Part shown: positions 55,698 to 64,000 of the stretch, in pieces | Position numbering within the stretch: position 1 is the first letter of the stretch | Layout of the letters: every line of letters starts with the position of its first letter | Source: Actinomycetota bacterium | GTDB lineage: Bacteria > Actinomycetota > Actinomycetes > Mycobacteriales > SCTD01 | Direction of reading: 5' to 3' | Assembly: GCA_019348355.1 (NCBI GenBank) | Contig: JAHWJP010000001.1 | Span: 12,752 to 76,751 of the forward strand | Length of the DNA: 64,000 bases | The notes under the pieces: model-generated | Database searches by the model: none | Told to the model about the DNA's origin: nothing | Seen by the model: the letters and a program-made list of their open reading frames with translations, nothing else | Translations under genes and position numbers: made by a program

Positions 55698-56831
55698 ATG
55701 CAGGAGCTCTCCCGTGGCGCGAACTGCCCGGTCCCCTCACCGGTCGTGACCGTGTCCGTCGCCTGCGCCTCACCGGTGGACGTCTCGGCGCTCCTGGTCG
55801 CTGCCACCGGCAAGGTCCGGTCCGATGCCGACCTCGTCTTCTACAACAACAACACCGGGCCGGGCGTGAGCTATCTGCCGGCCGCGAGCGGACCGCGCGG
55901 CGTGGATGCGATCCGCGTCGACACCACCCTCGTACCGCCTGAGATCGAGAAGGTCGTCATCACAGCGAGTCTGGACGGCTCCGGACCGGCCAGCTTCGCG
56001 CAGGCCGGCAGCATGGTCATCACCGTCCTCGACGGCGCCGGCACCGATGTGGTGCGCGCCGAGCTGACCGGCCTCACCAGCGAGGTCGCGCTGATCTGCG
56101 CCGAGGTCTACCGCCGCAACGGGGCGTGGAAGATCCGGGCGGTCGGGCAGGGCTTCGACAACGGGCTGGCCGGCATCGCCACCGAGTTCGGCATCGAGGT
56201 GGAGGCCGAGGCGCCCGCGGCGCCGGTGGTCGCCACCCCCACGACGGCGAAGGTCAACCTGGACAAGGGCCGGGTGTCACTGCACAAGAACCAGACCGTG
56301 TCGCTGGTCAAGACCGGAGCGCCTGCGCTGACCCGGGTCGCGATGGGACTCGGCTGGGACCCGCTGGAGGGGTGGGGGAACATCGACCTGGACGCCTCCG
56401 TCATCGCTTTCGACGCCAAGGGCCAGGACGTCGACATGGTGTGGTTCATGGCCAAACAGGGCTGTCAGGGGGCGATCCGGCACTCCGGTGACAACCTGAC
56501 CGGCGAGGGCGAGGGGGACGACGAGGTCATCCTCGTCGACCTGGACAAGCTCCCGGCCGCCGTCGCCGCGCTGGTGTTCACCGTCAACAGCTTCGGCGGC
56601 CAGAAGTTCACCGCCGTTCGCAACGCCTACTGCCGGTTGCTCGACGTCACCGGCAAGGCGCAGAGCGAGCTGGTCCGCTTCGAGCTGAGCGACAGCCAGC
56701 CGGAGACCGGCGTGCTCATGTGCAAGCTGGTCCGCCAGGCGGACGGCAGCTGGTCGATGACGGCGCTCGGCACGTACGCCGACAGCCGGACGGTCCGCAA
56801 GATGGTCGGCCCGGCCCGCGCGGCGCTCTGA
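55698..56831 (+). CDS. tandem TerD-domain stress protein
   Basis: Two TerD-like halves. The second carries the Ca-binding signature [25 protein letters not shown] and ...VNSFGGQKF... Confidence 0.85.
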
Positions 56832-56846
56832 GACGAGGAGTTCACG

Positions 56847-58574
56847 GTGACAGCTCTCCGCACGGTCCCGGCCGGCGCGCCGGCGGAGCACGTCGACGTG
56901 GTCGTCGTCGGCAGCGGCTTCGGCGGCAGCGTCGCCGCCCTGCGGCTGACCGAGAAGGGCTACCGGGTGTTGGTGCTGGAGGCCGGCCGACGTTTCACCG
57001 AGGCGAGCCTGCCGCGTACGTCCTGGAACGTCCGAGGGTTCCTCTGGGCACCGTGGCTGGGGTTGCGGGGCATCCAGCGCATCAGCCGGGTCGGCAAAGT
57101 CCTGGTGCTGGCGGGCGCCGGCGTCGGCGGTGGCTCGCTCAACTACGCCAACACCCTCTACCAGCCACCGGCCCCGTTCTACCGGGACCGGCAGTGGGGG
57201 CACATCACCGACTGGAAGGACGAGCTCGACCCCTGGTACGACCAGGCCCGCCGCATGCTGGGCGTCGTGCAGAACCCGACCTTGACCGAGGCCGACAGGG
57301 TGATGCGCGCGGTCGCCGAGGACATGGGTGTGGGGAGCACCTTCCAGCTCACCCCGGTCGGGGTCTTCTTCGGTCGCGGGGACACCCAGGAGCCAGGCGT
57401 GACGGTGCCCGATCCCTACTTCGGCGGCGCCGGGCCGGAGCGCACCGGGTGCGTCCAGTGCGGGTCCTGCATGACCGGTTGCCGGGTCGGCGCCAAGAAC
57501 ACTCTCGTCAAGAACTACCTCCACCTCGCGGAGCGAGCCGGGGCAACGATCCGCCCGGACACCACCGTCGTTCGTGTACGGCCGGTTCCGGCCGGCGGAT
57601 ACGCGGTCGACACCCGCCCCACCGGGGTGGGACCACGGCGCACCAGGACGGTCACCGCTGACCAGGTCGTGCTGGCCGCCGGCACGCTCGGCACCCAGCG
57701 CCTGCTCCACCGGATGCGCGACGCGGGCATCCTGCCGCACCTCTCGCCGCGGCTCGGGGTGCTGACCCGCACCAACTCCGAGTCCCTGCTGGGGGCGCAG
57801 ACCCGGACGGTGACGAGGAACTTCAGCCGTGGGGTGGCGATCACCTCGTCGTTCCACCCCGATGCCGAGACGCACATCGAGCCGGTCCGGTACGGGAAGG
57901 GCAGCAACCTGATGGGGCTGCTCCAGACGGTGATGACCGACGGCGGGGGCCGCGCGCCCCGCTGGGTCAAGGCGCTGCGCGAGATCCGGAAGAATCCCGG
58001 CGTCTTCCTGTCCACGCTCGATGCGCGCCGCTGGTCCGAGCGGACCATCATCGCCCTGGTCATGCAGACCAAAGACAACTCGATCACCACGTTCACCCGT
58101 CGGGGCAGGCTCACGGCCCGGCAGGGTCACGGGGAGCCCAACCCGGACTGGATCCCGGTCGGCAACGAGGCCGCCCGGCGCATGGCGGACAAGATCGGCG
58201 GCTATCCCGGCGGCACCATCGGTGAGCTCGCCAACATCCCCATGACGGCGCACTTCCTCGGCGGCTGCGCCATCGGCGACGCACCCGAGACCGGTGTGGT
58301 GGATGCCTACCACCGGGTCTACGGACACCCGGACCTGCACATCGTCGACGGCTCGACCGTCTCGGCCAACCTCGGCGTCAACCCCTCCCTCACCATCACG
58401 GCGCAGGCCGAGCGGGCGATGTCGCTGTGGCCGAACAAGGGCGAGGCGGATCCCCGGCCGGGACTCGGCGCCGCCTACCGGCGGATCGCCGCGGTGGCGC
58501 CCCGGACCCCGAGCGTGCCAGCGAGCGCGCCCGCCGCCCTGCGGCGGGTGTCAGCGGTGCGGCTCGGCCGCTGA
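56847..58574 (+). CDS. GMC family FAD oxidoreductase (cholesterol-oxidase-like)
   Basis: VVVGSGFGGSVAALRLTEKGYRVLVLEAG (FAD GxGxxG) and C-terminal ...HFLGGCAIG...YGHPDLHIVDGS... GTG with GAGGAG upstream. Confidence 0.9.
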   Translation: MTALRTVPAGAPAEHVDVVVVGSGFGGSVAALRLTEKGYRVLVLEAGRRFTEASLPRTSWNVRGFLWAPWLGLRGIQRISRVGKVLVLAGAGVGGGSLNYANTLYQPPAPFYRDRQWGHITDWKDELDPWYDQARRMLGVVQNPTLTEADRVMRAVAEDMGVGSTFQLTPVGVFFGRGDTQEPGVTVPDPYFGGAGPERTGCVQCGSCMTGCRVGAKNTLVKNYLHLAERAGATIRPDTTVVRVRPVPAGGYAVDTRPTGVGPRRTRTVTADQVVLAAGTLGTQRLLHRMRDAGILPHLSPRLGVLTRTNSESLLGAQTRTVTRNFSRGVAITSSFHPDAETHIEPVRYGKGSNLMGLLQTVMTDGGGRAPRWVKALREIRKNPGVFLSTLDARRWSERTIIALVMQTKDNSITTFTRRGRLTARQGHGEPNPDWIPVGNEAARRMADKIGGYPGGTIGELANIPMTAHFLGGCAIGDAPETGVVDAYHRVYGHPDLHIVDGSTVSANLGVNPSLTITAQAERAMSLWPNKGEADPRPGLGAAYRRIAAVAPRTPSVPASAPAALRRVSAVRLGR

Positions 58575-58579
58575 GGCCG

Positions 58580-58885
58580 TCAACCCTCCGACAGCACGGC
58601 GACCAGCTGCTCGACGGTCGGCGCGCCGGCCAGCCCGTCCGGCGTGCGGAACATCCGGCAGGCCAGACCGGTCGGCGCTCCCGGCTCGGCGAACGGGTCG
58701 CGCCCGTCGACCAGCACCGTGGGCGAGCCTCGAAAACCGAGCTGCTCGGCCTGCTCCGGGGTGGTGACCTGCCGGCGGGTCACCGGCTGGTCGGGGTGGC
58801 CGGTGAGCGCCAGGGCCTCCAGGAGTCGCTTGTCGGCCAACTGCCAGCTGGGGCAGCCGTCGAAGTACAGCAGGGTGACCTCCAT
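58580..58885 (-). CDS. small thioredoxin-fold protein (101 aa), function unknown
   Basis: MEVTLLYFDGCPSWQLA...GSPTVLVDGRDPF is a glutaredoxin/thioredoxin-like pattern. The rest of the 318-aa track ORF was rejected. Confidence 0.6.
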   Translation of the reverse strand: MEVTLLYFDGCPSWQLADKRLLEALALTGHPDQPVTRRQVTTPEQAEQLGFRGSPTVLVDGRDPFAEPGAPTGLACRMFRTPDGLAGAPTVEQLVAVLSEG

Positions 58886-58911
58886 CTGGTCAGTGTCCCC
58901 CGGAACTGGCC

Positions 58912-59874
58912 TTACGCCTTGGTCTCGCTGGCGGCGTGCTCCGGTCGGGCCTTGCGCCGGTGGAGCGTGAGGTTCATGACGACCACGGCGGCGGCGCCGA
59001 CGACGAGCCCGAGGAGCGCGCTGCCCAGCGTGTTGACCAGCCAGCCCACCACCGAGCCGAGGGCTCCGGTCGCCTCCTTCGCCGCCTCCTCCAGCCCGTG
59101 TACGACGTCGTACAGGAAGGTCAGGCCAAGGTCGTCGGTGCCCAGCAGCAGGATGTGACCGCCGACCCACAGCATCGCGGCGGTCCCGACCACGGTGAGC
59201 GCGGTGAGCAGCCGCGGCATCGCCTTGACCAGGCCGCGGCCGAAGGCGGCCAGGCCCTTGCCGGGGGACTCGGCCAGACGCAGTCCGGCGTCGTCCATCT
59301 TCACGATGAGGCCGACGACGCCGTAGACCAGCACGGTGATGCCGATCGCCACGACCGTGAGGATCACCGCCCGGGACACGAACGGCTCGTCGACGACCTC
59401 GTTCAGCGAGATGACCATGATCTCCGCCGACAGGATGAAATCGGTGCGCACCGCTCCGGACACGACGGTGTCCTCGTCCGGCAGAGCGGCCTCGCCGGAA
59501 GCGGCGGCGTCGTGGTGGCCACCGAACTTGGCCCACACCTTCTCCGCCCCCTCGTAGCAGAGGTAGGTGCCGCCGAGCATCAGAATCGGCGTGAGCAGGA
59601 CCGGCAGGAACTGGCTGAGCAGGAGCACGGCGGGCAGGATGATGAGCAGCTTGTTGCGCAGCGACCCGAAGGCGATGCGCCGGATGATCGGCAGCTCGCG
59701 CTTGGCAGCCAAGCCACGTACGTACTGCGGCGTCACGGCGGCGTCGTCGACGACGACACCCGCAGCCTTCACGCTGGCCCGGGCAGCACCGACCCCGATG
59801 TCATCGACGGACGCGGCGGCTGCGCGCGCCAGCACCGCCACGTCGTCCAGCAGAGCTACCAGTCCACCACTCAC
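58912..59874 (-). CDS. DUF808 (YedI-like) membrane protein
   Basis: LVALLDDVAVLARAAAAS...VVVDDAAVTPQYV...RELPIIRRIAFGSLRNKL...YLCYEGAEKV. GTG 59874 with GGAAGGA upstream. Confidence 0.85.
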   Translation of the reverse strand: MSGGLVALLDDVAVLARAAAASVDDIGVGAARASVKAAGVVVDDAAVTPQYVRGLAAKRELPIIRRIAFGSLRNKLLIILPAVLLLSQFLPVLLTPILMLGGTYLCYEGAEKVWAKFGGHHDAAASGEAALPDEDTVVSGAVRTDFILSAEIMVISLNEVVDEPFVSRAVILTVVAIGITVLVYGVVGLIVKMDDAGLRLAESPGKGLAAFGRGLVKAMPRLLTALTVVGTAAMLWVGGHILLLGTDDLGLTFLYDVVHGLEEAAKEATGALGSVVGWLVNTLGSALLGLVVGAAAVVVMNLTLHRRKARPEHAASETKA

Positions 59875-60663
59875 GACACGTCCTTCCGGTTCCTGCAGCG
59901 CCCTTGCGCCCACGGGCTTCGTCGCCGTGTGCCCGTTCCGGTCTCACGGTAGTCCGGCAGATCCGAAGCCGAGCGTTCAGCATCGCGTCGGAGCGCCGCC
60001 GGCCACCGCACCCAGCCGGTCGTGTCGCCGGCCGCGCCTTTCGGACAACCCTTCCGGTTGTCCTGGACGACGTGATGTCAAAGCCCTGCTGCTCGGTCGG
60101 TGGTGACGATGCTCGATCGTGGACGACGTAATCGGACTGGTTCCGGGTACGTCGATTCGGGAGTGCGAAGAATCACCCGATTGGCGGATGTGTTCCGCGC
60201 GCTGAAGCGTGAAAACTCGCGTAATGGAAGCACGGGAGCGCGATATGCCGACACGTGAGCACCTGACGCCGGCCGAGGATCGGGACTTGCGGGTCCTTCA
60301 CTGGCTCGCGTCCTTCGGCGCGGAGCTGTCCCCTGCCCGGGCAAGCCTCGTCGCGGAGCTTCGGGAACGCGATCTGCGGGCCACTGTTCGTGAGCCGGAC
60401 CAGGCCGTCCAGCCCTGGAGCTAGGGGGTCGGTCAAGGGGCCGTCGGAGTTGATGCTCCGGGCGGACCCCCGCCTTATCAGCCGCTCCCGCGCCTCCGTG
60501 GTGCTGTCCGGCCAGTACACCAGCGTCCTGCCACGTCGTCATAACGGCTCACGGGGCCGGAGGCCAACGCGTGATGACTTCGGCTCGGATCGCTCATAGC
60601 CGCTCCCCCCTCCCGGATCTGAAGTACGCCTCATCACCGAGGTAGAAGCGACCGCAACGCCGA

Positions 60664-61104
60664 CTACTGCAGCGGGAACGGCGGCTGGCGCCAGGGTGGG
60701 TCCTCGACGACTTCGATGGCGGCCACCCACTTCACCCACCAGAAGCCGCGCCGCCCGGGGGCGACGAGCCGCCGGGGTGCCCCGTGTCCCGGCGACAGGG
60801 GCTGCCCCCCTGCTGAGGTGGCCAGCAGGAGCTCCCCGGCCTGCTCCACCGGGAACCTGCGGCGGTACCCCGTGGTGGAGATCACGTCGATGCTGCGAGC
60901 CCCAGCCGGCGCCGCACCGAGGAGTCGGTCGAGGTGGATACCGCGCCACCGCTGGGTCGCGAACCATCCGCCGGTGCAGTCCAGAACGGCCTCGACCTCG
61001 TCGTCGAGGACGCCGAGCTCGACCGGCGCGCCGTTCACGAGCAGCGGCGCGTCGCGCTGCGCCCGAGGCGGCACCACGTCGGTGAACCACTGCGTCACGG
61101 GCAT
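60664..61104 (-). CDS. molybdopterin-dependent (sulfite-oxidase-fold) oxidoreductase catalytic domain
   Basis: LDCTGGWFATQRWRGIHLDRLL...LLATSAGGQPLSPGHGAPRRLVAPGRRGFWWVKWVAAIEV matches the Moco-domain pattern (C..gW...W.G..., G.P.RLV.P, KW). The ATG at 61104 may not be the native start. Confidence 0.75.
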   Translation of the reverse strand: MPVTQWFTDVVPPRAQRDAPLLVNGAPVELGVLDDEVEAVLDCTGGWFATQRWRGIHLDRLLGAAPAGARSIDVISTTGYRRRFPVEQAGELLLATSAGGQPLSPGHGAPRRLVAPGRRGFWWVKWVAAIEVVEDPPWRQPPFPLQ

Positions 61105-61462
61105 GGGTCACCAGGTGCCTGGCCAGAAGCGGGATCGCGAGCAGGGCCGTGGCCACGTGGACCTGGAGGGCCGTGATGCCCAGGACGGTGGTGAAGCCGG
61201 CGACCTCCTGGACCACCCCGGTGCTGATGCTGATCAACAGCAGGACGCTGAGCAGCCAACCGGCGCGTCGACCCGGATGTGCCGGGCGGGTCAGGCCCCG
61301 CCGCGCCACCGCCTGCTTCCACGGCACCAGCAGCAGCAGCGCCAACCCCGAGGCCGCGTGCGCAGTGGTGACCAGCGACGTCGCGGGCGCGATTCCCGAA
61401 CGGGGGAGCGCCGCCCGGCCAGCGGCCGTACGGGTGCCCAGCCCGGAGTCGCCTTCGTCAAC
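61105..61462 (-). pseudogene. three-TM N-terminal segment, out of frame with the downstream Moco domain (apparent frameshift)
   Basis: A frame with strong G/C third positions encodes TM helices (LVTTAHAASGLALLLLVPW, GWLLSVLLLISISTGVV, VLGITALQVHVATALLAIPLLARHLV). It runs past 61104 into an Arg/Ala-rich nonsense frame. The Moco frame is +1 relative to it. Confidence 0.45.
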
Positions 61463-61553
61463 TCCTCGCGGTCCGTGGGGCTCAGGGTGCGGTGTCAGGG
61501 CCCCCTCGTCATACGTGTACGTTGATGCCCCCTGGCCCCGGAGGACGTGCAGC

Positions 61554-63248
61554 ATGACCCGAATCGCCGTCTGCGGCGGCGTCTACTCCAACCCCTACGC
61601 CCTGCGTGCCTTTCTCGCTGACGCCCGCGCGCGGGGCGCCGACGAGCTCTACTGCCTGGGTGATCTCGGCGGCTACGGGGCCGAGCCGGACGCGATCTGG
61701 CCCCTGCTGGTGGACAACGGGGTGACGGTTGTCGCCGGCAACTACGACGTCGCCATCGGCCGCGGCGACACCGACTGCGGTTGCGGCTACTCCGATCCCC
61801 GCGACAACGAGTTCGCCCAGCTGATGTACGACTTCACGCTGGCCCACACCAGCGCCGACTACGCGCAGTGGATGACGACGCTGCCGACCGAGCGCCGCTT
61901 CGAGCGGGACGGCGTGGACGTGCACCTCGTGCACGGCTCGACGCTCGCGCTCAACGACTTCTGGTGGGAGTCGCTGCCGGAGGACCAGCAGCGGCTGCGG
62001 GTGCAGGCCTCCGGCGCCGACCTGATTTTGTGCACCCACTCCGGACTGCCGTGGCAAAAGCGCGTCGACGACACCCTGGTGGTCAACGTCGGCGTCCTCG
62101 GCCGGCCGGCCAACGACGGCCGCCGCGAGGTCTGGTACGCCATCGTCGACCTCGTGGACGGCCGCGCCACCGCCGAGCTCGTCCCGCTCGACTACGACTG
62201 GCAGGCGCAGGCAGCCTCCATGCGCGCCGGTGGGCTGCCCGATGCTTTTGTCGAGACGGTCGAGTCGGGCTGGTGGACAACGTGTCTGGAGATCGTCCCG
62301 CCGTACGAGCGCAGCAAGGGCCGCTATCAGCTCTACCGCTCCGCCCTGCCGTCGGGCTTCGAGGCCGAAGCGGTGTCCTGGGCCGACGCGCCCGAGGTCG
62401 TCGACGACGGGCTGCCGGTGGTGCCGCTGTTCGGCTCGCCGATGTTCCCGCCGCGGCTGTGGCTCTACACCAACTTCCACTGCAACCTGGCCTGCTCGTA
62501 CTGCTCGGTCGCCAGCAGCCCGCAGGCACGCAAGCGCTCACTGGGGCTGACCCGGGTGAAGGCGCTCGTCGACGAGGCGGTGATGGAGGGGTTCACGGAG
62601 ATCTACCTCACCGGCGGTGAGCCCTTCCTCGAGCCGGACATCGTCGAGATGGTGATGTACGCGACCGAGCGCCTCGACGTCGTGCTGCTCACCAACGGAA
62701 TGCTCTACCAGGGCTGGCGGCTCGAGCAGCTGAAGCGGCTCGCCGGCCGGGAGCGGCTCGTGCTCCAGACCTCGATCGACGCCGCATCACCCGAGGGTCA
62801 CGACGTCAACCGGGGCCGCGGCTCCTGGCAGAAGGCCATGGACGGGCTGCGCCTCGCGGTCGACATGGGCCTGCCGGTGCGCGTCGGCATGACCGAGACG
62901 CCGGAGAACACCGGCGAGGTGGAGCCGCTTCGTGCACTGCTCGCCACGATGGGCATCGTCGGCAAGGACTTCGCCGTTCGACCGCTCGTCCAGCGCGGCT
63001 TCTCGACGACCGGCGCCGAGATCGGCGAGGACAACACCGTGCCGGAGCTCGCCTACACCGCCGACGGGGTGCACTGGCACCCGGCCGGCGCCGACGTCGA
63101 GACCAGCCCCGACATGCTGCTCGCCGCCCACCCGTCCGCCGACACCCCCGTCCCGCTCGCCGAGGGCAAGCGCCTGGCCGTCGAGCGCTTCCTCACCCTG
63201 CGGCGGGCCGACGGCTCGCTGCCGCTCGTCTACAACTGCGCCGTCTGA
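61554..63248 (+). CDS. fusion protein: divergent metallophosphoesterase domain + radical SAM domain (564 aa)
   Basis: GGAGGA 8 nt upstream of ATG 61554. N-terminal MPP motif order (CLGDLGGYG, GNYD, HGS, CTHS, VNVGVLGRP). C-terminal CNLACSYC (Cys at 62481-62504), TGGEPFL and SIDA...GH...RG. One uninterrupted frame. Confidence 0.85.
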   Translation: MTRIAVCGGVYSNPYALRAFLADARARGADELYCLGDLGGYGAEPDAIWPLLVDNGVTVVAGNYDVAIGRGDTDCGCGYSDPRDNEFAQLMYDFTLAHTSADYAQWMTTLPTERRFERDGVDVHLVHGSTLALNDFWWESLPEDQQRLRVQASGADLILCTHSGLPWQKRVDDTLVVNVGVLGRPANDGRREVWYAIVDLVDGRATAELVPLDYDWQAQAASMRAGGLPDAFVETVESGWWTTCLEIVPPYERSKGRYQLYRSALPSGFEAEAVSWADAPEVVDDGLPVVPLFGSPMFPPRLWLYTNFHCNLACSYCSVASSPQARKRSLGLTRVKALVDEAVMEGFTEIYLTGGEPFLEPDIVEMVMYATERLDVVLLTNGMLYQGWRLEQLKRLAGRERLVLQTSIDAASPEGHDVNRGRGSWQKAMDGLRLAVDMGLPVRVGMTETPENTGEVEPLRALLATMGIVGKDFAVRPLVQRGFSTTGAEIGEDNTVPELAYTADGVHWHPAGADVETSPDMLLAAHPSADTPVPLAEGKRLAVERFLTLRRADGSLPLVYNCAV

Positions 63249-63283
63249 CCCTCCCTCACCCCCCTCTCCCGGATCGGATCGCG

Positions 63284-64000
63284 ATGTCGCTCGGACAGTC
63301 ATATCAACGCAGACTTGTGAGCCTCGCGGCCATCGCGGTGCTGGCCCTGACCGGCTGCGGCAGCAGCGGCTCCAGCGCTGACACCGCGACCGAGCGGCCG
63401 ACCCTGCGCTTCGCGGTCGGGCCGTTCCTGCCGAGCCCGGCCGACACGCGCTCCGCGTACGAGCCGTTCTTTCGAACCATCGCCGAGAAGGTCGGCGCCG
63501 ACTACGAGCTCGAGGTCAGCAGCGACTACGCCGGGCTCGCCGTCTCCCTCGCCAGCGGCAAGACCGACCTCGCCTGGATGGGGCCGTTCGGCTACGTGCT
63601 GGCCGCCGACAAGGGTGGGGCAGAGGCGATCGCGACGGTGGAGTACGACGGCAAGCCGGTCTACAAGTCGATCGTCGTCGCACCGGCGGACACCAAGGTC
63701 ATGGACTATCCGCGCGACGCCAAGGGCCTGCGGATGTCGTTCGCCGAGACGGCCTCGACCTCCGGCTGGCTCATCCCCACCTACCTGCTGAAGCAGGAGG
63801 GCATCGACCCGAAGACCTACTTCGACTACAGCGAGGGCGCCGCCCACCCGGCGCAGGAGACCGCGGTGGCCAACAACAAGGTCGACCTCGCCACCGACTT
63901 CGACCGCAACCGCAACGCCATGATCGACGCCGGCACGATCAAGGCTGAGCAGAGCAAGATCGTATGGACCTCGCCAGACCTGCCCAACGACGCGATCGCG
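63284..64000 (+). CDS. phnD: PhnD-type phosphonate/phosphite/phosphate ABC transporter substrate-binding lipoprotein (3' end outside window)
   Basis: Lipobox LALTGC. ...LRFAVGP..., ...SDYAGLAVSLASGKTDLAWMGPFGYV..., ...TSTSGWLIPTYLL... Not in the ORF track because the frame is still open at 64000. Confidence 0.8.
   Translation, partial: MSLGQSYQRRLVSLAAIAVLALTGCGSSGSSADTATERPTLRFAVGPFLPSPADTRSAYEPFFRTIAEKVGADYELEVSSDYAGLAVSLASGKTDLAWMGPFGYVLAADKGGAEAIATVEYDGKPVYKSIVVAPADTKVMDYPRDAKGLRMSFAETASTSGWLIPTYLLKQEGIDPKTYFDYSEGAAHPAQETAVANNKVDLATDFDRNRNAMIDAGTIKAEQSKIVWTSPDLPNDAIA

What the first reader, a model, noticed from the sequence alone, without database searches (positions are those of the whole stretch)
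61554..64000. Single ORF fusing a ligand-substituted metallophosphoesterase domain to a radical-SAM domain, directly upstream of a PhnD-type binding protein
Seen in the sequence:
- One uninterrupted 564-codon frame with a good SD.
- Residues 1 to about 245 follow the YfcE/MJ0936-type metallophosphoesterase motif order, but the canonical metal ligands are replaced. D-x-H is C-G-G-V-Y, GNH[DE] is GNYD and GHTH is CTHS. An extra DCGCGY Cys pair is inserted.
- Residues from about 300 to 564 carry CNLACSYC (CxxxCxxC), a GGEP-type SAM motif and no Cys-rich SPASM tail.
- The stop (63248) is 35 nt from the ATG of a PhnD-like lipoprotein, with no hairpin between them.
- The gene is divergent from a membrane/Moco oxidoreductase.

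Established knowledge: the MPP and radical-SAM motifs, PhnD as the phosphonate/phosphite/phosphate binding component, and C-P lyase PhnJ using radical SAM chemistry.

Inference: this could be an undescribed organophosphorus (phosphonate, phosphite or phosphoester) processing enzyme coupled to uptake. The MPP fold may have been repurposed, for example as a Cys-ligated cluster or substrate-binding module.
Basis: partly seen in the sequence, partly recalled or inferred. Interest (0 to 1): 0.78.

Follow-up and report, generated by a model that had tools for sequence, protein, structure and literature searches.

The report
Arsenic-type reductase domain fused to radical-SAM
The gene is real and joins a cysteine-bearing relative of a recently found arsenate reductase to a radical-SAM enzyme, and its relatives sit among arsenic-methylation and "arsenosugar" genes, so it most likely makes carbon-arsenic compounds, not phosphorus ones.

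Summary
ORF 61554-63248 encodes 564 aa with Metallophos_2 and Radical_SAM, both above Pfam thresholds. A PhnD-family lipoprotein gene follows after 35 nt with no terminator.

The substitutions need re-reading. GNYD and the CGC pair are ancestral to a subfamily that includes ars-operon proteins like the arsenate reductase Car1, whose CxC cysteines are essential. Only the three ligands of metal site 1 are lost (Asp to Gly9, His to Tyr11, second His of GHxH to Gly164), in every relative of this subgroup examined. The site-2 ligands are invariant.

The architecture is common: at least 114 genome hits, plus proteobacterial fusions and adjacent gene pairs. No paper or passing curated model assigns it a function.

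Across 84 loci the conserved neighbours are TIGR04283/TIGR04282 "arsenosugar" transferases, MTAP-like phosphorylase, FAD disulfide reductases and ArsM. The PhnD-type binding protein is in 6. The same transporter subfamily (54% identical) is embedded in the equivalent Roseomonas operon. The reductase-like domain is also fused to ArsM elsewhere.

Best reading, inferred: oxyanion import, thiol-based arsenical reduction or binding, then ArsS-like C-As bond formation. The phosphorus interpretation is not supported. This is a new variant of a known kind.

The parts
61540..61545 (+). Shine-Dalgarno-like GGAGGA, 8 nt before the ATG
   Evidence: Read directly from the sequence.
61554..63248 (+). Fusion gene: 564 codons plus TGA
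   Evidence: Open frame. Both Pfam domains are above their gathering scores. Full-length homologues of 60-100% identity occur in at least 114 genome hits.
61554..62327 (+). N-terminal domain, residues 1-258: half-site MPP fold, related to ars-operon MPPs of the Car1 type
   Evidence: Metallophos_2 scores 49.3 bits. Foldseek matches 3rqz, 3qfm, 2gju and 1nnw with TM(target) 0.75-0.81. It is 32% identical (E 5e-48) to the Paraclostridium arsR-MPP-arsM protein. Stand-alone homologues end at the ERS(R/K)GR(Y/F) motif.
61662..61664 (+). Asp37 of the GD motif: the bridging metal ligand, retained
   Evidence: 100% conserved in the canonical group and both degenerate groups.
61740..61742 (+). Asn63 of the GN motif: metal site 2 ligand, retained
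   Evidence: 100% conserved in all three groups.
61776..61784 (+). Cys75-Gly-Cys77, the CxC motif
   Evidence: 100% conserved in both degenerate groups and 95% in the canonical group. It corresponds to Cys74/Cys76, reported as essential for Car1 arsenate reductase activity (PMC12124457). The Paraclostridium homologue has C74-G-C76.
61932..61934 (+). His127 of the HGS motif: metal site 2 ligand, retained
   Evidence: 99-100% conserved in all three groups.
62037..62039 (+). His162, the first His of GHxH: metal site 2 ligand, retained. The second His is Gly164.
   Evidence: His162 is 99-100% conserved in all groups. Position 164 is His 100% in the canonical group and Gly 99-100% in the degenerate groups.
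62328..62450 (+). Interdomain linker, residues 259-299
   Evidence: Mean pLDDT of the 10-residue blocks from 241 to 290 is 49-60, then 77 for 291-300. The segment is absent from stand-alone homologues.
62451..63245 (+). Radical-SAM domain, residues 300-564, related to the Rv1681 and ArsS families
   Evidence: PF04055 scores 78.5 bits. NF049973 scores 273 bits (cutoff 380) over residues 300-517, and TIGR04167 scores 47.8 bits (cutoff 300). Foldseek matches SkfB and BlsE. It is 48% identical to a mycobacterial Rv1681-like protein.
62481..62504 (+). C310-x3-C314-x2-C317: radical-SAM [4Fe-4S] motif
   Evidence: Read from the sequence. Invariant in 74 homologues.
62613..62624 (+). G354-G-E-P357: SAM-binding motif
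   Evidence: Invariant in 74 homologues and in proteobacterial partners.
63237..63239 (+). Cys562, three residues from the C-terminus
   Evidence: Invariant. It aligns with the first Cys of the proteobacterial tail HCAxFCVLGGxSCS.
63249..63283 (.). 35-nt intergenic spacer
   Evidence: No terminator-like site.
63284..64000 (+). PhnD-family lipoprotein substrate-binding protein of the HtxB/PtxB 'hybrid' type. It runs off the window.
   Evidence: PF12974 hits at 1.1e-44 and TIGR01098 is above its cutoff. It matches HtxB 5me4 at E 5e-74 and 44% identity, with W52Y, N128S, F158H and R178/D206 kept. In L001 (99.6% identical DNA) a permease and an ATPase follow.
63347..63358 (+). Lipobox L22-T-G-C25 of the binding protein
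   Evidence: Read from the sequence.

Best explanation
The gene encodes a two-domain enzyme of an organoarsenical pathway.

**N-terminal domain.** It is a half-site variant of the CxC-bearing MPP subfamily that includes ars-operon proteins like the arsenate reductase Car1.
- It keeps the CxC dithiol (C75, C77).
- It keeps the metal site 2 ligands (D37, N63, H127, H162).
- It has lost all three metal site 1 ligands.

Inferred role: it binds an arsenic oxyanion, possibly a methylated pentavalent one, and reduces or holds it as a thiol-bound trivalent arsenical.

**C-terminal domain.** It is a canonical radical-SAM domain related to the Rv1681 and ArsS families. Inferred role: it forms a C-As bond on that trivalent arsenical, most likely by 5'-deoxyadenosyl radical addition as ArsS does.

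**Operon in this organism**, shown by synteny with a near-identical contig (L001) and a 92%-identical one (L002): fusion, then an HtxB-like ABC importer, then ArsM.

**Relatives.** An MTAP-like phosphorylase and the TIGR04282/TIGR04283 transferases would, by inference, remove adenine and build an arsenosugar-type glycoside.

**Shown:** domain identities, ligand pattern, gene neighbourhoods and domain fusions. **Inferred:** substrate, reductase activity and the chemistry of the radical-SAM step.
For: 1. **Domain assignments.** Both Pfam domains pass their thresholds.

2. **Selective ligand loss.** Gly9 is 100%, Tyr11 97-100% and Gly164 99-100% in 128 actinobacterial and 145 other degenerate sequences. 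D37, N63, H127 and H162 are kept in 99-100%, and C75/C77 in 100%.

3. **Canonical sister proteins sit in ars operons.**
- arsR-DUF6428-MPP-ACR3 in Pontibacter.
- arsR-MPP-arsM in Paraclostridium.
- They are 29-32% identical to the N-domain, with E 5e-40 to 5e-48.
- PMC12124457 states that such an Orf1 is about 40% identical to the arsenate reductase Car1 and has its essential Cys74/Cys76.

4. **Rosetta-stone fusions of the degenerate domain**:
- to arsenosugar-type ArsM (NF038099, 465 bits against 400);
- to arsenite methyltransferase (PRK11873, 280 against 263);
- to the arsenosugar-associated AhpD-like TIGR04169 (145 against 120).

5. **Neighbours in 84 fusion loci**: TIGR04283-like 58, MerA-like FAD reductase 50, second radical-SAM-like protein 47, Pyr_redox_3 42, TIGR04282 41, MTAP-like 40, ArsM-like 29.

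6. **Close relatives.** In proteins 84-87% identical, a 386-389 aa ArsM-like gene starts 11-19 nt after the fusion. All eight such ArsM genes carry the four ArsM cysteine motifs. In L002 (92% DNA identity) ArsM follows the transporter.

7. **The same cassette occurs in Proteobacteria.** The MPP-like and radical-SAM parts are fused or adjacent. With them come TIGR04283 (202 against 182), TIGR04282 (145 against 134), an MFS transporter and an FAD reductase.

8. **Known precedents.** C-As-forming radical-SAM enzymes need trivalent arsenic. ArsL binds it with a Cys-rich tail, and ArsS adenosylates DMAs(III) (PMC13598754; bioRxiv 10.1101/2024.02.01.577332).
Against: - No member of this family has been tested biochemically.
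- The radical-SAM domain fails the ArsS cutoff (47.8 against 300) and the Rv1681 cutoff (273 against 380).
- The cassette contains a second radical-SAM-like protein, which could be the C-As-forming enzyme instead.
- The 'arsenosugar' names of TIGR04282/TIGR04283 rest, to my knowledge, on genome context rather than experiments.
- The Car1 paper could not be read. Car1 belongs, by inference, to the group with a full ligand set, so its mechanism may not carry over to the half-site variant.
- The binding protein is far closer to the hypophosphite binder HtxB (E 5e-74) than to the arsenic-oxyanion binders AioX and ArrX (E about 1e-8 to 1e-9).
- 13 of 43 well-flanked stand-alone MPP-like genes have no adjacent radical-SAM gene. 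Three alphaproteobacterial pairs have no ars genes nearby.
- Arsenosugars have not been reported from actinomycetes (PMC12159101).
Confidence: 0.55

Rival explanations
1. The system is an arsenic system, but the radical-SAM chemistry differs. Options include ArsL-like 3-amino-3-carboxypropyl transfer releasing MTA, methylation, or a later tailoring step. The second radical-SAM-like protein of the cassette would then make the first C-As bond.
For: - ArsM next to the fusion scores best against the arsinothricin-type model (NF040538, 342-343 bits).
- An MTAP-like enzyme would also fit removal of MTA.
- A conserved second radical-SAM-like protein (CNLKCTPC motif) occurs in 47 of 84 loci and in Roseomonas.
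- The fusion fails the ArsS cutoff.
Against: - No RCCLKC tail is present; the C-terminus is ...YNCAV.
- NF040538 stays below its cutoff of 500.
- Co-occurrence with the TIGR04282 nucleotidyltransferase-like and TIGR04283 glycosyltransferase proteins fits a ribosyl product better than an amino acid.
Confidence: 0.15
2. One reading: the enzyme acts on a reduced-phosphorus or phosphonate compound imported by the adjacent PhnD-type transporter.
For: - The binding protein matches HtxB at E 5e-74 and passes TIGR01098.
- The spacer is 35 nt with no terminator.
- PhnD-type transporters recur next to the system in three other lineages.
Against: - The PhnD-type binding protein is in only 6 of 84 fusion loci, and PstS-type or MFS transporters replace it elsewhere.
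- No phn, ptx or htx catabolic genes were seen in the loci inspected. ArsM with its arsenite-binding cysteine motifs sits in the same operon.
- The N-domain is related to ars-operon MPPs of the Car1 type and is fused to ArsM elsewhere.
- The HtxB specificity residues W52, N128 and F158 are changed.
Confidence: 0.07
3. The cassette handles another thiophilic element (Se, Te, Sb or Hg) rather than arsenic.
For: - Genuine MerA and MerR-family genes lie next to some cassettes (L023 584 bits, L174 540 bits, cutoff 454).
- The related NCBIfam families were defined around selenoproteins.
- The Rv1681-like locus has deiodinase-like, glutaredoxin and AhpD-like genes.
- A TerD gene lies in the window.
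Against: - ArsM, ArsR and ACR3 dominate the contexts.
- The only characterised relative of the N-domain is an arsenate reductase.
- Oxyanion importers of the phosphate and phosphonate type fit arsenic oxyanions, which mimic phosphate.
Confidence: 0.08
4. The N-domain is a catalytically dead scaffold, like Vps29, that only stabilises or regulates the radical-SAM domain.
For: Three of seven metal ligands are lost. Vps29 structures appear among the weaker fold matches.
Against: - The four remaining ligands and the CxC pair are kept in 99-100% of sequences in both degenerate groups, 273 sequences spanning actinobacterial and non-actinobacterial lineages.
- The same domain is fused to three different arsenic-related partners and also occurs alone.
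Confidence: 0.05

Closest known systems
Car1, the MPP-fold arsenate reductase of Rufibacter tibetensis (Shen et al. 2024, Mol Microbiol 122:201, cited in PMC12124457), and its ars-operon homologues
   Same: - Both have the Metallophos_2 fold.
- Both share the GNYD motif and the CxC pair at the same position (Cys74/76 in Car1, Cys75/77 here).
- Both are associated with ArsR, ArsM and ACR3.
- The N-domain is 29-32% identical to ars-operon homologues.
   Different: - The homologues inspected keep all seven metal ligands (SDIHxN, GHTH). Here Asp, His and His of metal site 1 are Gly9, Tyr11 and Gly164.
- This domain has an extra PANDG insertion and a C-terminal extension (GWWTTCLE..P..ER).
- It is fused to a radical-SAM domain.
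- The Car1 sequence and paper were not available for direct comparison.
ArsS (TIGR04167), the radical-SAM DDMAA synthase of arsenosugar biosynthesis
   Same: - Both have a CxxxCxxC radical-SAM core without a SPASM domain.
- Both share genomic partners: TIGR04282, TIGR04283, ArsM and the AhpD-like TIGR04169.
- Both would need a trivalent arsenical.
   Different: - The score is only 47.8 bits against a cutoff of 300.
- This protein carries an N-terminal MPP-like domain.
- It has a single C-terminal Cys (C562).
ArsL, the noncanonical radical-SAM enzyme of arsinothricin biosynthesis
   Same: Both are radical-SAM proteins next to an ArsM that resembles the arsinothricin type. Both have a cysteine-based module that could hold As(III).
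   Different: There is no RCCLKC tail. Here the cysteines sit in a separate N-terminal domain. The neighbours point to a ribosyl rather than an amino-acid product.
Rv1681 (MoeX) family radical-SAM protein with its Rv1680 SBP-like neighbour (NF049973, NF049985)
   Same: It is the best-scoring family for the radical-SAM core: 273 bits, and 48% identity to a Mycolicibacterium member. It also sits beside a PhnD-fold protein.
   Different: - The score is below the cutoff of 380, and model positions 1-71 and 289-326 are unmatched.
- The mycobacterial protein has no MPP-like domain.
- Its SBP-like neighbour is only 24% identical to the binding protein here.
- The function of Rv1681 is itself unknown.
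HtxB and PtxB, the hypophosphite- and phosphite-binding proteins (Bisson et al. 2017, PMC5700983)
   Same: The neighbouring lipoprotein is 44% identical to HtxB over 260 residues and keeps the HtxB capping ion pair R178/D206.
   Different: The HtxB specificity residues W52, N128 and F158 are Y, S and H, as in PtxB (Y55, S130, H160). This places the protein in the uncharacterised 'hybrid' class.
HpnH/HpnG and MqnE/MqnB: adenosyl-radical addition followed by removal of the base (own knowledge)
   Same: The relatives' cassettes show the same operon logic: a radical-SAM enzyme together with a PNP/MTAP-family phosphorylase.
   Different: The acceptors differ (hopene, a chorismate derivative). No arsenic, reductase domain or transporter is involved.

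Membership tests
Radical SAM superfamily (PF04055) | Profile score above the gathering threshold | tested here: met
   78.5 bits against 29.5, residues 309-450.
Radical SAM superfamily (PF04055) | CxxxCxxC cluster motif and GGE SAM-binding motif | tested here: met
   C310, C314, C317 and G354-G-E-P357 are invariant in 74 homologues.
Radical SAM superfamily (PF04055) | Partial TIM-barrel fold | tested here: met
   In the AF2 model, most blocks of residues 301-550 have mean pLDDT of 77-96. Foldseek matches SkfB 6efn (E 7.7e-12) and BlsE 7vob (E 9.7e-10).
Radical SAM superfamily (PF04055) | Reductive cleavage of SAM by a [4Fe-4S] cluster | not testable with these tools
   Requires anaerobic biochemistry.
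SPASM/twitch radical-SAM enzymes | Cys-rich C-terminal auxiliary-cluster domain | tested here: not met
   C562 is the only Cys after the CxxxCxxC motif.
ArsS (TIGR04167) | Score at or above the curated cutoff of 300 bits | tested here: not met
   47.8 bits here; 55-68 bits for proteobacterial partners.
ArsS (TIGR04167) | Genomic association with TIGR04282/TIGR04283 and ArsM | tested here: met
   Of 84 loci, 58 have TIGR04283-like, 41 TIGR04282-like and 29 ArsM-like genes. The neighbours pass their own cutoffs.
ArsS (TIGR04167) | Adenosylation of DMAs(III) to DDMAA | not testable with these tools
   Enzyme assay needed.
ArsL (RCCLKC-tail radical SAM) | C-terminal RCCLKC arsenite-binding motif | tested here: not met
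   The C-terminus is ...LPLVYNCAV, with one Cys.
Rv1681 family (NF049973) | Score at or above the curated cutoff of 380 bits over the whole model | tested here: not met
   273.2 bits, with only model positions 72-288 of 326 matched.
Metallophosphoesterase superfamily (PF12850) | Profile score above the gathering threshold, and MPP fold | tested here: met
   49.3 bits against 27. Foldseek TM(target) is 0.75-0.81 to 3rqz, 3qfm, 2gju and 1nnw.
Metallophosphoesterase superfamily (PF12850) | Full set of seven dinuclear-site ligands (D-x-H, GD, GN, H, GHxH) | tested here: not met
   D, H and the second H are G9, Y11 and G164. D37, N63, H127 and H162 are kept. The assignment of ligands to metal sites follows Mre11 and PP1 structures (own knowledge).
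Car1-type MPP arsenate reductase | CxC pair (Cys74/Cys76) essential for the reductase activity | tested here: met
   C75-G-C77 is 100% conserved. The equivalence is shown through the Paraclostridium homologue, which has C74-G-C76.
Car1-type MPP arsenate reductase | Location in arsenic gene clusters | tested here: met
   ArsM is adjacent or in the operon in the window's clade. The domain is fused to ArsM elsewhere.
Car1-type MPP arsenate reductase | Direct sequence similarity to Car1, and arsenate reductase activity | not tested
   The Car1 sequence and paper were not held. Activity needs an experiment.
PhnD/HtxB/PtxB binding proteins (neighbouring gene) | TIGR01098 subfamily cutoff of 112 bits | tested here: met
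   175.9 bits for the full-length protein from L001.
PhnD/HtxB/PtxB binding proteins (neighbouring gene) | PhnD equivalog cutoff of 261 bits (TIGR03431) | tested here: not met
   181.2 bits.
PhnD/HtxB/PtxB binding proteins (neighbouring gene) | HtxB hypophosphite specificity residues W52, N128 and F158 | tested here: not met
   They are Y, S and H, while R178 and D206 are retained.

The most novel reading that the evidence does not exclude
The half-site MPP domain could be the reductase and carrier for methylated pentavalent arsenicals, MAs(V) or DMAs(V). To my knowledge no gene is yet known for that activity. Together with a non-ArsS radical-SAM partner and an HtxB-like importer, it would form a scavenging pathway. 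That pathway would turn environmental methylarsenicals into arsenosugar-type compounds in aerobic actinomycetes and proteobacteria. This would also identify the ligand of the uncharacterised 'hybrid' HtxB/PtxB binding-protein class as an arsenical.
Probability: 0.2. Interest if true: 0.8.

Novelty: new variant of a known kind. Interest (0 to 1): 0.62.

Why it matters
**What would be new.** If the reading is right, a large unannotated protein family gains a place in arsenic biochemistry. The family comprises thousands of sequence clusters in Streptomyces, other Actinomycetota and Proteobacteria.

- **C-As bond formation.** It would be a second, non-ArsS route to radical-SAM C-As bond formation. 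The substrate-preparing reductase or carrier domain would be built into the enzyme.
- **Arsenosugars in actinomycetes.** It predicts arsenosugar-type metabolites in actinomycetes. So far these organisms are credited only with simple methylated arsenicals and bisenarsan (PMC12159101).
- **Car1 family.** It extends the MPP-fold arsenate reductase Car1, described in 2024, to a distinct half-site subgroup.
- **'Hybrid' binding proteins.** It offers a testable ligand hypothesis for the 'hybrid' HtxB/PtxB binding proteins.

**Annotation.** Names such as 'phosphonate ABC transporter' and 'predicted phosphodiesterase' at these loci are probably misleading.

Tried and rejected
**Searches that found no function.**
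- **Literature.** Searches for the fusion (metallophosphoesterase + radical SAM + arsenic; arsenosugar + phosphoesterase) found nothing.
- **Rv1681/Rv1680.** Papers only list Rv1681 as a urine or serum antigen.

**Sources that could not be read.**
- **Car1 paper.** The primary paper is not held, so Car1 is known here only through PMC12124457.
- **Model geometry.** The AF2 model gave fold and confidence but no coordinates. I could not measure the distance from the CxC pair to the metal site, or the domain interface. pTM is 0.66 and the linker has low confidence.

**Ideas considered and rejected.**
- **GNYD and DCGCGY as novel substitutions.** Rejected, because both are conserved in the canonical sister group.
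- **Binding protein as an AioX/ArrX-type arsenic binder.** Sequence does not support this: E is about 1e-8 to 1e-9, against 5e-74 for HtxB.

**Checks with negative or uninformative results.**
- **Other cassette genes in the window.** A search of the whole 64-kb window for ArsM, TIGR04282/3, MTAP-like, c1, c2 and c4 found none. The window simply ends before the predicted ArsM.
- **Second radical-SAM-like protein (c1).** It has no NCBIfam or PDB match.
- **Context look-ups.** Those for P0190, P0213 and P0230 returned contigs too short to be informative.

**Method caveat.** My crude GC3-based gene caller mis-called some genes on the wrong strand. Counts were therefore redone with tblastn.

Full report
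**1. The observation**

The frame from ATG 61554 to the TGA at 63246-63248 is open and encodes 564 aa. GGAGGA lies 8 nt upstream of the ATG. The mechanical ORF list extends the frame to a GTG at 61149. All close homologues are 554-580 aa and begin MTR(I/L)AVCGG, so 61554 is the real start.

- Pfam gives Metallophos_2 (residues 13-201, 49.3 bits against 27) and Radical_SAM (residues 309-450, 78.5 bits against 29.5).
- The CxxxCxxC motif is C310/C314/C317, and the GGEP motif is residues 354-357.
- The only later cysteine is C562, so there is no SPASM or twitch domain.
- An AlphaFold2 model built on 74 homologues has mean pLDDT 85.5. Both domains are confident and the linker is not.
- Foldseek finds small MPPs for the N-domain (3rqz, SapH 3qfm, 2gju, 1nnw). 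It finds SkfB and BlsE for the C-domain.
- The next gene starts 35 nt after the stop, and no terminator-like hairpin lies between them. It is a PhnD-family lipoprotein.
- A contig with 99.6% identical DNA (L001) shows a permease and an ABC ATPase after it.

**2. Re-reading the 'substituted ligands'**

A scan of 1.84 billion representative proteins with the N-domain found 5265 relatives at E up to 0.001. Aligned, they fall into two groups.

- **Canonical group**, about 240 aa: SDIHGN, GD, GNYD, CGC, HGS, GHTH.
- **Degenerate group**, which includes this protein.

| Position | Canonical group (20 sequences) | Degenerate groups (128 actinobacterial, 145 other) |
|---|---|---|
| 9 | Asp 100% | Gly 100% |
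| 11 | His 100% | Tyr 97-100% |
| 164 | His 100% | Gly 99-100% |
| D37, N63, H127, H162 | 100% kept | 99-100% kept |
| C75, C77 | 95% | 100% |
| C34 | 85% | 93-95% |

The assignment of ligands to metal sites is established from Mre11 and PP1 structures (own knowledge). By that assignment, the three lost residues are exactly the ligands specific to metal site 1. The bridging Asp and the three site-2 ligands survive.

GNYD and the CGC pair are subfamily traits, not peculiarities of this protein. Such a precise and conserved pattern argues for a working site rather than decay.

**3. The CxC subfamily and arsenic**

Canonical members sit inside ars operons.
- arsR-DUF6428-MPP-ACR3 on a Pontibacter plasmid.
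- arsR-MPP-arsM on a Paraclostridium plasmid.

Both carry SDIHxN, GNYD, CGC and GHTH. They are 29-32% identical to the N-domain, with E 5e-40 to 5e-48.

PMC12124457 describes such a Paraclostridium Orf1 as about 40% identical to Car1, an arsenate reductase of Rufibacter tibetensis. [quoted passage not shown] It cites Shen et al. [quoted passage not shown] The Paraclostridium plasmid protein indeed has C74-G-C76, which matches C75-G-C77 here.

The Car1 paper itself was not available. Uncharacterised MPP genes in Mucilaginibacter ars operons are also on record (PMC10652896).

**4. How common the fusion is**

The architecture is common.
- The first protein search returned 1917 hits, and the best 120 were all full-length fusions.
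- 114 hits were confirmed in the collection of one genome per species. They include many Streptomyces, Actinomycetospora, Catenulispora, Actinocrinis, Thermoleophilaceae, Acidimicrobiales and a Dormibacterota MAG.

The two parts form a module beyond Actinomycetota.
- In three alphaproteobacterial contigs, a stand-alone degenerate MPP-like gene lies next to a stand-alone radical-SAM gene of 288-321 aa.
- Among 80 metagenome loci, 25 have MPP-like and radical-SAM fused in one frame, and 17 have radical-SAM then MPP-like as adjacent genes.
- 30 of the 43 loci with at least 1.1 kb of flank on both sides have the partner.

The degenerate domain is also fused to other arsenic-related partners.
- Arsenosugar-type ArsM (NF038099, 465 against 400).
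- Arsenite methyltransferase (PRK11873, 280 against 263).
- The arsenosugar-associated AhpD-like family TIGR04169 (145 against 120).

No NCBIfam model matches the domain itself.

**5. Neighbourhoods**

Counts within 10 kb of the fusion in 84 loci, by tblastn with reference proteins:

| Neighbour | Loci |
|---|---|
| TIGR04283-like | 58 |
| MerA-like FAD disulfide reductase | 50 |
| Second radical-SAM-like protein | 47 |
| Pyr_redox_3 oxidoreductase | 42 |
| TIGR04282-like | 41 |
| MTAP-like phosphorylase | 40 |
| ArsM-like | 29 |
| MFS transporter | 20 |
| PhnD-type binding protein | 6 |
| PstS-type binding protein | 5 |

- Representative neighbours pass the curated cutoffs for TIGR04282 (181 against 134) and TIGR04283 (232 against 182).
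- The same cassette recurs in proteobacterial metagenome contigs and on a Roseomonas plasmid.
- In proteins 84-87% identical to the window's, the order is AMP-binding, Aldedh, fusion, ArsM-like (starting 11-19 nt after the fusion), then a PstS-type ABC importer. ArsR, Pyr_redox_3 and PNP_UDP_1 genes also lie in or near two of the three clusters.
- All eight ArsM-like genes of this clade carry the CC, YGCG, SNCV and W..C..GA motifs. To my knowledge these correspond to the arsenite-binding cysteines of ArsM.
- The six loci with the PhnD-type binding protein are the window and its closest relatives. In L002 (92% DNA identity) and L011, ArsM follows the transporter 2.5 kb after the fusion.
- The window's operon is therefore most likely fusion, binding protein, permease, ATPase, ArsM, with ArsM lying just beyond the window's end (inference from synteny).

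**6. The transporter**

The binding protein matches the hypophosphite binder HtxB at E 5e-74, with 44% identity over 260 residues. AioX and ArrX, which bind arsenic oxyanions, match only at about 1e-8 to 1e-9.

The three residues that Bisson et al. identify as excluding a third oxygen in HtxB (W52, N128, F158) are Y, S and H here. These are the residues that bind the third oxygen of phosphite in PtxB. The HtxB capping ion pair R178/D206 is kept. The protein thus fits the uncharacterised 'hybrid' class named in that paper, and its ligand cannot be read from the sequence.

The linkage is not a one-off.
- On Roseomonas plasmid p546-1 the operon reads TIGR04282, DUF547, radical SAM (459 aa), radical SAM (315 aa), binding protein, PhnE, ATPase, MPP-like.
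- Its binding protein and permease are each 54% identical to the window's.
- PhnD-type genes also lie directly upstream of one MPP-like-ArsM fusion (L095). They lie convergent to another (L091), but that binding protein is only 24% identical.

Oxyanion import is therefore a recurrent but optional part of the system. It is filled by PhnD-type, PstS-type or MFS transporters in different lineages.

**7. Most likely mechanism (inference)**

1. An arsenic oxyanion is imported.
2. The N-domain binds it at the remaining metal site and reduces or captures it on the CxC dithiol, by analogy with Car1.
3. Neighbouring FAD disulfide reductases or AhpD-like proteins could recycle the dithiol.
4. ArsM methylates the arsenical.
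5. The radical-SAM domain forms a C-As bond on the trivalent species.

ArsS adenosylates DMAs(III). ArsL acts only on trivalent arsenic and holds it with three cysteines of a C-terminal tail. Proteobacterial partner proteins have a three-Cys tail, HCAxFCVLGGxSCS. The actinobacterial fusion keeps only its first Cys, C562. This fits, but does not prove, a transfer of arsenic binding to the fused domain.

A PNP/MTAP-family phosphorylase next to a radical-SAM enzyme is the logic of HpnH/HpnG and MqnE/MqnB (own knowledge). With the nucleotidyltransferase-like TIGR04282 and the glycosyltransferase TIGR04283, it fits an adenosyl-arsenical that is de-adenylated and re-glycosylated.

**8. Limits**

- The radical-SAM domain is a member of neither ArsS (47.8 against 300) nor the Rv1681 family (273 against 380), although Rv1681 is its nearest family. 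It is 48% identical to a Mycolicibacterium plasmid member, which itself sits next to a PhnD-fold SBP-like gene.
- The second radical-SAM-like protein of the cassette has no family or structure match and could carry the key step.
- The 'arsenosugar' names of the transferases rest, to my knowledge, on context.
- No arsenosugar is known from actinomycetes.
- Some stand-alone MPP-like genes have no radical-SAM or ars neighbour.
- The geometry of the CxC pair relative to the metal site could not be measured.

**9. Verdict**

It is an undescribed enzyme with a repurposed MPP fold, and coupling to uptake is plausible. The element is most likely arsenic, not phosphorus.
- It works like Car1 plus ArsS, but is a tested member of neither family.
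- Novelty: a new variant of a known kind.
- Interest: 0.62.

Noticed in passing
window 60664-61400, minus strand: The divergent upstream gene looks frameshifted. A hydrophobic, membrane-like N-terminal part reads in one frame (about 61105-61400). The Oxidored_molyb domain reads in another (60664-61104). This is either a pseudogene or an assembly error.
   Followed up: partly
window 61507-61553 compared with L002, L005 and L011: Synteny with close relatives stops at most 47 nt upstream of the ATG. Relatives have AMP-binding and aldehyde dehydrogenase genes there; the window has the Moco oxidoreductase gene instead.
   Followed up: partly
L023:6320-7756, Roseomonas L179:1315-2694: A second radical-SAM-like protein of about 460-480 aa (motif CNLKCTPC) is conserved in the cassette across phyla, in 47 of 84 loci. 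It scores just below the Pfam threshold and has no NCBIfam or PDB sequence match.
   Followed up: partly
L177 (Mycolicibacterium vanbaalenii plasmid NZ_CP126902) 5949-7765: An Rv1680-like PhnD/SsuA-fold gene overlaps an Rv1681-like radical-SAM gene. Its neighbours are AhpD-like, deiodinase-like, glutaredoxin, MFS, CcdA, a disulfide oxidoreductase, another radical-SAM gene and a methyltransferase. This is a thiol-redox context for the uncharacterised MoeX family.
   Followed up: no
window 63284-64000; L179:3649-4506: The 'hybrid' HtxB/PtxB class of binding proteins (Bisson et al. 2017) turns up inside arsenic-type operons in two phyla. Its unknown ligand might therefore be an arsenical.
   Followed up: partly
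L082:7063-8013, L084:8966-9829, L085:7009-7971, L094: Proteobacterial partner radical-SAM proteins end in a conserved three-Cys tail, LNHxHCAxFCVLGGxSCS. They have further conserved Cys residues (ACW, MCA, ACTLLPYD) that are absent from the actinobacterial fusion.
   Followed up: partly
L023:15383-16810, L174:732-2168: Genuine MerA genes (584 and 540 bits against a cutoff of 454), together with MerR-family and ArsR genes in L023, lie beside some cassettes. The cassette tends to sit in metal(loid) resistance islands.
   Followed up: no
L088:20089-21695: An FGGY kinase and a class II aldolase lie near the cluster, with aldehyde dehydrogenase and acyl-CoA ligase genes upstream of the fusion. This could hint at further processing of a 5-deoxyribose-type arsenical, or it could be coincidence.
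   Followed up: no
window 55698-59913: A TerD-domain protein (55698-56831), a GMC-type FAD oxidoreductase (56847-58574) and a DUF808 membrane protein (58912-59913, minus strand) lie upstream. No link to the fusion was found.
   Followed up: no
L141, L166, L093: Several stand-alone or AhpD-fused degenerate MPP-like genes lie directly downstream of a large membrane-protein gene rather than a radical-SAM gene. In L093 that gene gives a weak hit to the sodium:solute symporter family.
   Followed up: no
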